Shown here: positions 27,001 through 30,000 of the stretch, piece after piece
Position numbering within the stretch: the first letter of the stretch is position 1
How the letters are laid out: every line of letters begins with the position of its first letter
Assembly (NCBI RefSeq): GCF_044324875.1
Contig: NZ_CP172185.1
Origin: Escherichia coli
Lineage (GTDB): Bacteria; Pseudomonadota; Gammaproteobacteria; Enterobacterales; Enterobacteriaceae
Reading direction: 5' to 3' (one strand)
DNA length: 64,000 bases
Made by a program: the position numbers

Positions 27001-30000
27001 CGAGCGCAAAGGCTCCCCCATTACGCCCCGCCATAATACGGGGTAGGGTGGAATTACGGGCACAAAAAAACCGCATTACGGAAATATAGCGGCTACCCGC
27101 TTCTACTATCAGGCTGCTAAACCCGGCACCCGCTTTATGAGGTGCGGGCAAACGATACGCCATGACAAAAAAGCGAGTCAAGCAATATTGCAAATTATTT
27201 TTGCGCGATTGCGCTGAGTGATTGATTTTTAAGAGTAAAAAAGTCATAATCATTTCTGGCTATTGTTTCTTATTGTTGGTTTCAGGTGCACTAAATGCAC
27301 ATCCTTGACTGGTTGGCTCGCTGGCTTTAGCGAGCTTCTTTTTTGCTCTGCTGTCAGTGATCGGCCTCCTTCCCTCACATGTAGTCATGTGCTCATTCCA
27401 GTCAGGTGGATAATGCTGTATTACCGGACATCCGGTTATGATGTTTAAAGCGTTTGTTTGTTTATGCCACGTGGAGAATATACCCCCACCGCCATTACTT
27501 GTATTTATCATAACAGTTCACCCAATTCGGTTAATGTAACCGGAATAACTCAATTTCATACACTGTAAATAAATGCTGATTTTAAACTTAGCTCCTTGGA
27601 ATATATTTCTTACGTGTGACGCACAGGTGAAAATATCCCTCTGATAGTCCATTTTCTTTTATTTTGTCACATCTGTTTACTCCGGTTCCCTTAACAAGGG
27701 TAGAGCATCTTTTAAACCATGAATGCATCTTCGGTTAAGTGATGTTTCTTATTGTATGAAATATTTAGGCGCATATCGCGCCATGCTGACTATAAAATGA
27801 AAATAATTAAGCCTGAAAACGTTGTTGTTTTCTTTCTTCTATCCAGTCGATAATTTCCTCTTCAACCCATGCAACCGCACGAGGGCCTATTTTTATTGGT
27901 TTGGGGAATATATCAGATTTTATATCTTCGTAAATTCGAGCTCTTGATCTCCCTGTGATTTCAATGACTCTGGGGAGTCTTATTAATTTTTGAATCCGCC
28001 TTTCGCTGGTCTGTGAGTATGCTGACATATTGGCCTCCTGTATATGCTGACATTTTACGTTAGCTCACAGCGGGAGCATGTAAGATCTCGCGGTCGTCTG
28101 CGGGACGAGAAAAATCATAAACAACGAAAAGCGGATTTGTAAATCAGGTCGATTTTCAGGCGGGGTTGACATGGACAGTGAGATTTGTTCCATGTGTGCA
28201 ATATACATTTTAGGACCACTTTAAGCCACTTTAAACCGCCAGAAAGCGACAAAGAATAACAAGTTAGTGCCAGAAAGGTTTGCTGACTTACCCTTTTAGG
28301 TACCAGAAAAAGCCCTTTCAGGTCGGTGTAATGCTTGTGAACGCTGAAATAGTGGTTTCTGAAAACAAAAAAAGAATTGAAAATGTGATACATATCACAA
28401 AATAATATCGATAAAATAGTTTGATTTTTTTGTTTTTATTAAAAGCACTGGTTAATTGTAAAAAATTAATTATAAATCAAATGGATATATCTGTTTTTTT
28501 AGGGTAAAAATCACTAGGTGCTTTTAGCAGTATCTTATTCTATTGATTTTAAAAGATAAAAAAATCGGCGTGTCCACATATTGTCCACGCCTTGAGTTTA
28601 ATTCAGCCGCTTGGGATAGTTTAGTTTGTTGAGTTGATTCAGTCTGTTTCGTTAGTCCATTTAAAATCATAGGGGGAAATATATGCCGTCTTGCAGGTGT
28701 CGAGATAATCAGCCCACCATTGCAACATTCGGCGGCGTTCCTGCATATGTTCAGCTCTGTGAACGTATGCAGCCCGGACACTGCCTCTTTCCCTGTGACT
28801 CATCTGAAGCTCAACGGCTTCTCTTGTCCACCTGCCTGACTCTGTCAGCGCCGAACAGGCCATGGTCCTGAATCCGTGACCACAAATATCTTTTTTTGTG
28901 TCGTATCCCATGTGGCGTAATGCCTTGTTAATGGTGTTTTCGCTCATTGGTTTTATCTGGTAATGGTCGCTGGGGAAAATAAACACTTCATCACCGGATA
29001 TATTTCTTATATCGTCAAGAAGCTGCATGGCCTGAGTGGGTAAAGGGATGGCGTGAGGGGTTCCCATTTTCGTTCCACGATATGAATATTTTACGCCTTC
29101 TATTTTTTCGCGTTCTGCTGGTATTACCCACATTGATTTATCAAAGTCAATTTCATTCCAACGAGCAAAACGCAATTCACTTGAGCGAATAAAAATTAAT
29201 AAATTTAATTTTAGTGCAAATTGCGTTAATAACCGTCCATTCATCTTATGGTGGTAATCATTTATTTTGCCAAGTAATTCAGGTAATCGCTCAAGGGGAA
29301 GAGCGGGGCGATGTTTGGTTTTATTAGTTTCGATTGCACCGTTCAGTTCCTGCGCTGGATTGTATTTAATCATTCCATTCTGTACAGCGTAGCGCATAAT
29401 GGCGTTCATTCGCTGCTTGTTACGTGATGCTGTCTCAAGCACTCCTTTGTCTTCCATTTTGCGTAAAGGAATCAGTAGATCCATGGTTGTGATCTCGTTA
29501 ATTGGCCTTTTACCAAGAATGGGGAAGATGTGGTTTTCCAGGTCTTTTAAGACTTTTTGCGCGTGTAATTCGCTCCACCCCTTTTTCCGGCTGTGCCATT
29601 CTCTGGCAACGTCTTCAAAAAGCACTATTTGAGGTTTTGGTGTGTGCAGTGGGTCAATGCCTTTAGCCAGGCTCGCCAGATATTCATCACGAGCGTTCCT
29701 TGCCTGTGCAAGTGTTACGGCAGGATAAATGCCTAAAGCTCGGGTCGTTTCTTTACCGTTGATAACCTTGCGAAAGCGCCAGTATTTTGAGCCGTTGGGG
29801 TGAACATAGAGATACAGGCCTTTCCCGTCACGAAGTTTTTTAATTTTATTGTTGTCCTTATCTGGTTTGGCGTTACGTACAGCTATATCAGTCAGTTTCA
29901 TTATGTTGATCCTCCAGACGGGTACAAATAAAAATCGAACCAAGCATACCCGCTTTTATACCCATTTTAATATGGGCTTCAGGCAAATTTAACGAGAGAA

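What the first reader, a model, noticed from the sequence alone, without database searches (positions are those of the whole stretch)
27311..27345. Plus-strand terminator-like hairpin in a cluster of minus-strand island genes: possible antisense or small RNA
gctcgc-tggcttta-gcgagc followed by a T-run is oriented opposite to all neighbouring genes, in the ~550-bp non-coding gap between alpA and the next ORF. P4-family elements use RNA-based immunity, so a small regulatory RNA here is plausible.
Basis: inference. Interest (0 to 1): 0.3.

Follow-up and report, generated by a model that had tools for sequence, protein, structure and literature searches.

The report
Orphan plus-strand terminator beside satellite immunity RNAs
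A well-formed, conserved transcription terminator points against all its neighbouring genes in a P4-like phage-satellite island of E. coli, and most likely closes a roughly 88-base non-coding transcript made next to the island's known RNA immunity module; its expression has not been shown.

Summary
The hairpin is real: 9 pairs at 27315-27336 (+), then TCTTTTTT. It is a canonical intrinsic-terminator shape. Only 4 sites of this quality occur in the 64 kb on both strands, against about 0.0015 expected by chance in the gap.

That module is on the minus strand: isrK/seqA-like RNA at 27064-27145, C4/CI RNA at 26951-27038, then icd.

The hairpin matches no Rfam family. Its module (27257-27395) occurs in 56 of 5426 E. 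coli genomes, always at this spot and never annotated. The stem never varies outside its apical pair, and the T-run is always 6-9 T.

A sister island type replaces the module with unrelated sequence that carries a different plus-strand terminator at the same place. A sigma-70-like promoter (TTGATT-17-CATAAT, 27222-27250) sits back-to-back with the isrK promoter and predicts an RNA of about 88 nt (27258-27345).

Best reading (about 0.5): a short counter-transcript unit. The terminator stops plus-strand transcription before it enters alpA. The RNA is antisense to the leader of read-through transcripts, up to the start of the long ORF that overlies the immunity RNAs.

Expression is untested, and a purely insulating role is the main rival. 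Interest is modest.

The parts
27315..27336 (+). Terminator stem-loop GGCTCGCTG-GCTT-TAGCGAGCT (9 pairs, 5 G-C, 2 G.U)
   Evidence: Eight pairs are invariant in 19 unique homologues; only the apical pair (27323/27328) and loop base 27325 vary.
27337..27345 (+). U-tract TCTTTTTTG, with 6 T in the window and 6-9 T in homologues
   Evidence: The run varies in length but is never shorter than 6.
27286..27300 (+). Upstream small hairpin GTGCA-CTAAA-TGCAC inside the predicted RNA
   Evidence: Only the first loop base varies. The hairpin is absent from variant L013, which keeps the terminator.
27301..27314 (+). Predicted single-stranded linker ATCCTTGACTGGTT, a candidate seed
   Evidence: No variable column in 11 unique sequences that were not retrieved through this motif. 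L029 carries a 5-nt duplication here.
27222..27250 (+). Sigma-70-like promoter TTGATT-17-CATAAT; predicted start about 27257-27258
   Evidence: 9 of 12 matches; such matches are common. Both hexamers are kept in type C islands although 6 of 17 spacer bases differ. Caveat: CATAATCAT is the reverse complement of the ATGATTATG start of the long minus-strand ORF.
27258..27345 (+). Predicted non-coding plus-strand transcript of about 88 nt
   Evidence: Inferred from the promoter and the terminator. No Rfam match. No conserved ORF.
27152..27181 (-). Promoter of the immunity transcript (TTGACT-18-TATCGT), back-to-back with the plus-strand promoter
   Evidence: The predicted start at 27145 coincides with position 1 of the isrK model.
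27064..27145 (-). isrK / seqA-like leader RNA with its own terminator (RF01394)
   Evidence: 50.6 bits against a gathering score of 50. The c4-a1b1 target motif lies at 27106-27158, below its threshold.
26951..27038 (-). C4 / P4-CI-type antisense immunity RNA (RF01695)
   Evidence: 73.3 bits. 76-80% identical to the P1/P7 c4 region.
26726..27253 (-). Long open frame over isrK and C4. Only the last 57 codons (icd-like, ATG at 26898) behave as a protein.
27807..28028 (-). alpA (AlpA/Vis family), the upstream gene that the terminator shields from plus-strand transcription
   Evidence: PF05930, E = 5.5e-17.

Best explanation
The hairpin is the Rho-independent terminator of a short, non-coding, plus-strand transcription unit of about 88 nt (27258-27345). 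The unit starts at a sigma-70-type promoter (27222-27250) set back-to-back with the promoter of the isrK/C4 immunity transcript.

Shown: the terminator anatomy, its conservation, and its fixed position next to the immunity promoter in several island architectures.

Inferred:
- The promoter fires.
- The terminator stops plus-strand transcription before it can run antisense into alpA and int.
- The RNA acts as a counter-transcript. It is complementary to the leader of any transcript that reads through from alpA, up to 4-5 nt from the ATG (27253) of the long open frame overlying isrK and C4.
- In that position it could hinder read-through or translation that would otherwise bypass C4-type immunity, as PLL transcripts do in P4.
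For: - The hairpin is a canonical terminator shape and unlikely by chance.
- The module 27257-27395 is in 56 of 5426 E. coli genomes, always beside the isrK/C4 promoter block, and never in plasmids or phages.
- In 19 unique homologues the eight basal pairs never change. The apical pair switches G.U to A-U (A.C in one variant), loop bases vary, and the T-run is 6-9 T. The 50 nt just downstream vary at 46-48% of columns.
- Variant L013 replaces the 5' half of the RNA but keeps the terminator.
- Type C islands (L004, L005, L012, L014) diverge completely right after CATAAT. They still carry a different strong plus-strand terminator (GCGGCCCG..CGGGCCGT or ACGGCCTGC..GCGGGCCGT plus a T-run) at the same relative place, about 10 nt short of the upstream capsid gene.
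- In all three architectures the plus-strand unit ends before the upstream ORF.
- No minus-strand terminator lies between alpA and the immunity promoter, so read-through is possible.
- Divergent units next to c4-type promoters are usual. P1 has a predicted PsimA promoter driving simABC, and other islands have a divergent YlcI/YnfO-family gene.
Against: - There are no expression data of any kind.
- The promoter is a 9-of-12 consensus match, which is no more frequent here than in shuffles.
- Conservation of its -10 can also be explained by the overlapping ATGATTATG start of the long minus-strand ORF.
- The stem shows no compensatory double changes, so structure is supported by conservation only.
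- A covariance model of the RNA does not detect the type C version, so the two units are analogous, not demonstrably homologous.
- No convincing trans target was found.
- A second opposite-strand terminator elsewhere in the island (25744-25768) suggests such hairpins may simply be insulators.
Confidence: 0.5

Rival explanations
1. The hairpin is only an insulator or a vestige. It merely stops stray plus-strand transcription, from a divergent promoter or from a lost divergent gene such as simABC or ylcI/ynfO, and the RNA product has no function of its own.
For: Other islands and P1 carry real divergent genes at this spot. A second opposite-strand terminator at 25744-25768 points to a general need to block antisense transcription. 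No target was found. The 5' 30 nt of the predicted RNA are poorly conserved, with 30-40% variable columns.
Against: None of the genomes and contigs examined that have this promoter block carries a plus-strand gene there; all have short ORF-less units. The 14-nt linker before the stem is invariant in sequences retrieved independently of it, which a bare terminator would not need.
Confidence: 0.25
2. The conserved structure works in the minus-strand RNA or at the DNA level, for example as a leader hairpin of read-through transcripts (processing or stability) or as a protein-binding site. On this reading the plus-strand T-run is incidental.
For: The minus-strand RNA also folds a 7-pair hairpin here. 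The region would be the 5' leader of the long open frame that starts at 27253. Flanking conserved pieces, AAGGAGG on the minus strand at 27365-27371 and the CACATG hairpin, suggest leader features.
Against: The T-run is kept at 6 or more T in every variant and lies on the plus strand only. Two of the nine pairs are G.U on the plus strand and would be C.A mismatches on the minus strand. Type C islands keep the plus-strand polarity with an unrelated sequence.
Confidence: 0.12
3. The hairpin is a chance inverted repeat carried along with a mobile module and has no function.
For: The homologues are only 5-14% divergent, so conservation has limited power. The loose terminator scan is not enriched.
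Against: The strict scan expects about 0.0015 such sites per 550 bp. The stem and tail are invariant while the adjacent 50 nt vary at nearly half the columns. An independent plus-strand terminator sits at the same place in type C islands.
Confidence: 0.08
4. The region encodes a small protein. Candidates are the minus-strand ORFs 27250-27378 (42 aa) and 27260-27511 (83 aa), or the plus-strand 11-aa peptide MHILDWLARWL (27296-27331).
For: These ORFs exist. A strong AAGGAGG lies on the minus strand at 27365-27371, and an AGGTG lies 6 nt before the plus-strand ATG.
Against: The T/A-run differs by 1-3 nt among homologues, which shifts the frame of both minus-strand ORFs. No ATG, GTG or conserved start follows the AAGGAGG. 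The G-to-A variant at 27323 creates a stop that shortens the peptide to 9 aa, and L013 lacks its ATG. RefSeq annotates nothing here in 56 genomes.
Confidence: 0.03

Closest known systems
Phage P1/P7 immI region (c4 antisense RNA, icd, ant, with divergent PsimA-simABC)
   Same: The adjacent minus-strand module is of this type: C4 RNA (RF01695, 73.3 bits), upstream a1/b1-like targets and an icd-like gene, 76-80% identical to P1/P7 over about 185 bp. P1 also has a (predicted) promoter divergent from the c4 promoters.
   Different: In P1 the divergent unit encodes SimA/B/C proteins. Here it is about 88 nt, has no ORF and is closed by a terminator. There is no sequence similarity upstream of window 27126, and the covariance model of the RNA finds nothing in P1.
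Satellite phage P4 immunity (PLE, seqA, CI RNA, kil/eta, PLL read-through from vis)
   Same: Same order of AlpA/Vis-family gene, constitutive promoter, isrK/seqA-like leader, C4/CI RNA and primase. P4 matches both Rfam models. An open frame overlies the immunity RNA in both.
   Different: In P4 the vis stop is only about 35 bp from PLE, and no plus-strand terminator or unit exists there. The element studied here is an addition absent from P4.
Salmonella Gifsy-1 IsrK (RF01394)
   Same: The minus-strand RNA at 27064-27145 reaches the family's gathering score. The paper itself notes that IsrK is a structural homologue of P4 seqA (PMC4825925).
   Different: IsrK is the neighbour, not the hairpin. 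The paper describes no RNA from the opposite strand upstream of PisrK.
Short phage counter-transcripts such as lambda OOP RNA and P22 Sar RNA (from general knowledge)
   Same: A 70-90-nt RNA made against the direction of all surrounding genes, from its own promoter and ending at an intrinsic terminator. It is complementary to a junction in the opposing operon next to a translation start.
   Different: There is no sequence or Rfam relationship. Expression and target effect are unproven here. The complementary partner exists only if alpA transcripts read through.

Membership tests
Rho-independent (intrinsic) terminator | G+C-rich stem of about 5-14 pairs with a short loop | tested here: met
   9 pairs, 5 G-C, 4-nt loop, -13.8 kcal/mol.
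Rho-independent (intrinsic) terminator | U-tract directly after the stem on the transcribed strand | tested here: met
   TCTTTTTT on the plus strand, with 6-9 T in all 19 unique homologues. There is no U-tract on the minus strand.
Rho-independent (intrinsic) terminator | Lies at the end of a transcription unit on the same strand | tested here: inconclusive
   Only consensus promoter matches lie upstream (27222-27250 and 27162-27189). No transcript data are available.
Rho-independent (intrinsic) terminator | Terminates RNA polymerase in vitro or in vivo | not testable with these tools
   Needs Term-seq, a Northern blot or a read-through reporter.
C4 antisense RNA / P4 CI RNA (Rfam RF01695) | Match to the covariance model at or above the gathering score | tested here: not met
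   No C4 match covers 27258-27345 even at E <= 10. The C4 match is at 26951-27038 on the minus strand.
isrK / seqA-like RNA (Rfam RF01394) | Match to the covariance model at or above the gathering score | tested here: not met
   No isrK match at the hairpin. The isrK match is at 27064-27145 on the minus strand.
Any described RNA family (Rfam 15) | Significant covariance-model match over 27258-27345 | tested here: not met
   The best matches are suhB/mmgR at E = 0.58 and Trp_leader at E = 2.3, both far below their gathering scores.
Cis-antisense counter-transcript (OOP/Sar-like in function) | Own promoter opposite to the surrounding operon | tested here: inconclusive
   TTGATT-17-CATAAT is kept in all island types, but its -10 overlaps a conserved minus-strand ATG.
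Cis-antisense counter-transcript (OOP/Sar-like in function) | Complementary to a functional site of an opposing transcript | tested here: inconclusive
   The predicted 5' end is 4-5 nt from the ATG at 27253 of the long open frame, and no minus-strand terminator blocks read-through from alpA. Whether that read-through transcript exists is inferred.
Hfq-type trans-acting sRNA | Terminator hairpin with a long U-tail plus a conserved single-stranded seed | tested here: met
   U-tail of at least 6. The linker 27301-27314 is invariant in 11 sequences retrieved independently of it.
Hfq-type trans-acting sRNA | An identifiable mRNA target or Hfq binding | tested here: inconclusive
   Duplex scans against island RNAs and translation starts gave nothing beyond z of about -2.4. 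Hfq binding cannot be tested here.

The most novel reading that the evidence does not exclude
The plus-strand RNA is a third RNA component of C4/CI-type satellite immunity. It would be a counter-transcript, made constitutively beside the immunity promoter, that pairs with the leader of alpA-derived read-through transcripts right up to the start codon of the eta-like open frame. By blocking translation of that frame it would keep read-through transcripts sensitive to termination, and so set the threshold for island activation. Its body would be swapped as a cassette between island types A/B, L013 and C.
Probability: 0.15. Interest if true: 0.55.

Novelty: new member of a known kind. Interest (0 to 1): 0.3.

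Why it matters
P4-like satellites and Gram-negative PICIs sit in a large share of enterobacterial genomes, and how they stay silent is understood mainly from P4 and P1. If this unit is expressed, it adds an undescribed, terminator-delimited counter-transcript at the junction where 'late' read-through from alpA meets the C4-type immunity region. That gives a testable handle on how leaky read-through is kept from switching the island on.

If it is only an insulator, it is still a useful annotation point. RefSeq draws a 173-175-aa 'Icd-like' CDS over the isrK and C4 RNAs and leaves the whole regulatory region unannotated.

Tried and rejected
- A genome-contig search with the 57-aa Icd protein confirmed no loci.
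- The second genome-contig scan, with a promoter 20-mer, gave one Escherichia sp. contig of type B. The promoter block therefore looks Escherichia-restricted, and a broad cross-species survey was not possible.
- The first duplex search of the RNA against the island timed out. A reduced version gave long unspecific duplexes with no clear target.
- A covariance model of the RNA (R1) recovered only its own training sequences. It found nothing in type C islands, other C4 loci, P1 or P4.
- RNAalifold and pair counts showed conservation but no compensatory changes.
- A literature search for the hairpin sequence found nothing. Papers on P4-like satellites, PICIs and IsrK mention C4/isrK but no opposite-strand RNA.
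- Small-ORF readings were rejected because of T-run length polymorphism and a stop polymorphism.
- The argument that 'hexamer conservation proves the promoter' was weakened once the -10 was seen to overlap the ATGATTATG start of the long ORF.
- Some homologues (L023-L032) were fetched with a pattern covering 27293-27312, so conservation there was re-computed without them.

Full report
**Observation.** The inverted repeat extends to nine pairs, GGCTCGCTG/TAGCGAGCT at 27315-27336, with a GCTT loop, five G-C pairs and two G.U pairs. TCTTTTTTGC follows it.

The 42-nt segment folds at -13.8 kcal/mol, with z = -2.18 against dinucleotide shuffles. The tool's permissive terminator pattern is not enriched locally, 5 found against 3.8 expected. 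I therefore applied a strict pattern: stem of at least 8, at least 5 G-C, and at least 6 T in 8.

Only four such sites exist in the whole 64-kb window on both strands. Shuffles give about 0.0015 expected per 550 bp of one strand. The T-run is on the plus strand only. On the minus strand the stem is preceded by an A-run and followed by CAACCAGUCAAGG. So the hairpin is real, of terminator quality, unidirectional, and opposed to every neighbouring gene.

**Context.** The window holds an island inserted at tRNA-Arg(CCT) (30080-30154), next to yfdC and mlaA as in E. coli. Reading along the minus strand it carries:
- a tyrosine integrase (28639-29943);
- alpA (27807-28028; PF05930);
- the 553-bp gap that contains the hairpin;
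- small ORFs and a P4-alpha-like primase (23060-25753).

In the RNA module, Rfam places an isrK/seqA-like RNA at 27064-27145 (50.6 bits against a gathering score of 50) and a C4/CI-type antisense RNA at 26951-27038 (73.3 bits), both on the minus strand. They are followed by an icd-like gene with its ATG at 26898. This block is 76-80% identical to the c4 region of phages P1 and P7.

A promoter-like site, TTGACT-18-TATCGT (27181..27152, minus), predicts a start at 27145, which is exactly position 1 of the isrK model. The literature already notes that the C4 and isrK profiles detect CI and seqA relatives in Gram-negative PICIs (PMC10111431) and that IsrK is a structural homologue of P4 seqA (PMC4825925). 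So RNA immunity is indeed present, but it is a different, minus-strand element 170-390 bp from the hairpin.

**What the hairpin is not.** No Rfam family matches 27258-27345. The best hits are chance-level: suhB/mmgR at E = 0.58 and Trp_leader at E = 2.3. RefSeq annotates nothing there in any of 56 E. coli genomes.

The minus-strand ORFs that cross it (27250-27378 and 27260-27511) cannot be genes. The T/A-run differs by one to three bases among homologues, which shifts their frames, and no conserved start follows the AAGGAGG at 27365-27371.

An 11-codon plus-strand ORF (27296-27331) is cut to 9 codons by a common variant and loses its ATG in L013. P4 itself has no counterpart: its vis stop lies about 35 bp from PLE, and no plus-strand terminator is found there.

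**Comparative evidence.** The module 27257-27395 occurs in 56 of 5426 complete E. coli genomes. It is always chromosomal and always directly beside the isrK/C4 promoter block. It does not occur in the plasmid or phage collections.

Three island architectures share the nearly invariant promoter block 27146-27256:
- Type A (this window): alpA, the 553-bp gap, then the module.
- Type B: int, a hypothetical gene, a 106-aa AlpA-family gene, about 200 bp, then the module.
- Type C: alpA, a hypothetical gene, a P2-family capsid gene, about 85 bp, then the module.

Types A and B share the hairpin module up to about 27395. I assembled 19 unique sequences from E. coli genomes, IMG/VR contigs, one Escherichia sp. 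genome and metagenome contigs. In these, the eight basal pairs of the stem never change. The apical pair alternates G.U and A-U, with A.C in one variant. Two loop-region positions vary, and the T-run is 6-9 T.

Some sequences had been fetched with a pattern covering 27293-27312, so I repeated the count on 11 unique sequences retrieved independently of it:

| Segment | Variable columns |
|---|---|
| 5' 30 nt of the predicted RNA | 30% |
| Small hairpin | 7% (one loop base) |
| Linker 27301-27314 | 0% |
| Terminator stem-loop | 14% (all apical) |
| T-tail | 0% |
| 50 nt downstream | 46% |

There are no compensatory double changes, so structure is supported by conservation, not by covariation.

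**The strongest argument is analogy by replacement.** Type C islands diverge completely from types A and B immediately after CATAAT. They still carry a different, strong, plus-strand-only terminator at the same relative position: GCGGCCCG..CGGGCCGT, or in L014 ACGGCCTGC..GCGGGCCGT, each with a T-run. It ends about 10 nt short of the upstream capsid gene.

Variant L013 replaces the 5' half of the RNA body but keeps the terminator. A covariance model built from the A/B RNA does not detect the type C unit, nor anything in P1, P4 or other C4 loci. The type C unit is therefore an analogue rather than a demonstrable homologue. In all architectures the plus-strand unit stops before the upstream ORF.

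**Where plus-strand transcription would start.** TTGATT-17-CATAAT at 27222-27250 is the best candidate. It matches 9 of 12 positions with optimal spacing and predicts a start near 27257-27258 and an RNA of about 88 nt. Both hexamers are intact in type C although 6 of 17 spacer bases differ.

Two cautions apply. Matches of this quality are as common in shuffles. Also, CATAATCAT is the reverse complement of ATGATTATG, the start of the 175-codon open frame (26726-27253) that RefSeq calls 'Icd-like'.

That frame is intact in all 23 homologues. Its first 118 codons change almost only non-synonymously, for example 5 synonymous against 31 non-synonymous in L009. The last 57 codons, the real Icd, change mostly synonymously. 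This looks like the P4 kil/eta situation, where translation across the immunity region matters rather than the protein (P4 literature from memory; summarised in PMC10111431). It gives a second reason for that patch to be conserved.

Independent support that divergent units belong next to c4-type promoters comes from two sources. P1 has a predicted PsimA promoter and simABC diverging from the c4 promoters. More distant islands have a divergent YlcI/YnfO-family gene at the same place.

**Mechanism proposed.** The anatomy and conservation of a plus-strand intrinsic terminator tied to the immunity promoter region are shown. The following steps are inferred:
- A promoter back-to-back with PisrK makes an RNA of about 88 nt that ends at 27343-27346.
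- The terminator confines this transcription so that it does not run antisense through alpA and int.
- No minus-strand terminator lies between alpA and the immunity promoter, so transcripts from alpA can read through, as PLL transcripts do in P4.
- The plus-strand RNA is complementary to the leader of those transcripts up to 4-5 nt from the ATG at 27253. It could therefore occlude ribosome entry or trigger cleavage, keeping leaky read-through from bypassing immunity.

I give about 0.5 to 'a discrete plus-strand transcript ends here'. I give about 0.15 to the specific regulatory role.

**Rivals.**
- Pure insulator or vestige of a lost divergent gene (0.25). A second opposite-strand terminator at 25744-25768, perfect in relatives, lies between a small ORF and the primase start. 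This suggests the island uses such hairpins generally.
- A role in the minus-strand leader or at the DNA level (0.12). The plus-only T-run, the G.U pairs and type C keeping the same polarity all weaken it.
- Chance (0.08).
- A small protein (0.03).

**Comparison and novelty.** In kind, this is an orphan promoter-terminator pair, that is, a candidate counter-transcript or sRNA of the sort known from lambda (OOP) and P22 (Sar). It sits beside a P1/P4-type immunity module. It is not a member of the C4, isrK or any other Rfam family, and I found no description of it in the literature searched. I file it as a new member of a known kind, unverified. Interest is modest at 0.3, and would rise if the counter-transcript role were shown.

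Noticed in passing
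window 26951-27145 (-): A complete P1/P4-type RNA immunity module: isrK/seqA-like RNA at 27064-27145 and C4/CI RNA at 26951-27038, followed by icd. It is unannotated in RefSeq relatives, which instead draw a 173-175-aa 'Icd-like' CDS across both RNAs.
   Followed up: yes
window 26726-27253 (-): This 175-codon open frame is never broken in 23 homologues. Codons 1-118 evolve almost only non-synonymously, while codons 119-175 (Icd) evolve mostly synonymously. An open frame kept without protein constraint is reminiscent of P4 kil/eta, where translation controls termination. Its start ATGATTATG overlaps the plus-strand -10-like CATAAT.
   Followed up: partly
window 25744-25768 (+): A second opposite-strand terminator-like hairpin, CCCCACTGCA-CCTTT-TGCCGTGGGG followed by TTTTTATTAAT, lies between the stop of the 99-aa ORF (25778) and the primase start. 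It has one mismatch here and is a perfect 10-pair stem in relatives. On the minus strand it is followed by UGGAGUUUUAUAUAUG (primase SD and ATG), so it may be a bidirectional terminator or attenuator.
   Followed up: partly
window 27396-27806: About 410 bp of unannotated, ORF-poor DNA between the hairpin module and alpA. It is found in only 19 E. coli genomes and always in this context. It contains a weak plus-strand hairpin (27423-27436) and a minus-strand promoter-like site with an extended -10 (27534..27507).
   Followed up: partly
window 27182-27191: A 10-bp palindrome, GCAATATTGC, abuts the -35 of the isrK promoter between the two divergent promoter-like sites. It is a possible operator. 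It is broken in the L016, L031 and L032 variants.
   Followed up: no
window 27365-27371 (minus-strand AAGGAGG): A strong Shine-Dalgarno-like AAGGAGG on the minus strand (CCTCCTT, anti-SD-like, on the plus strand) lies just beyond the terminator. No conserved start codon follows it, and some variants read GGAGAGG.
   Followed up: partly
L004, L005, L012, L014 (type C islands); window 15618-17030: Sister islands carry a P2-family major capsid gene and a neighbouring hypothetical gene between alpA and the immunity module. The window's island has a P2-family capsid ORF elsewhere (15618-17030). Capsid-encoding satellites therefore share this immunity block in a mosaic fashion.
   Followed up: no
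window 18345-23093: An IS21-family pair (istA-like 19117-20763, istB 18345-19343) and a second tyrosine integrase (22053-23093) lie directly downstream of the primase. This suggests an insertion or a composite island.
   Followed up: no
window 5817-13730 (+): A 2637-aa autotransporter (ESPR signal, autochaperone domain and beta-domain), possibly island cargo.
   Followed up: no
L018 3132-3437 (+), L020 3150-3329 (+): In more distant C4/icd islands a divergent YlcI/YnfO-family gene occupies the position that the short non-coding unit takes here. These islands also have two tandem Icd-like ORFs that overlap by 8 nt.
   Followed up: partly
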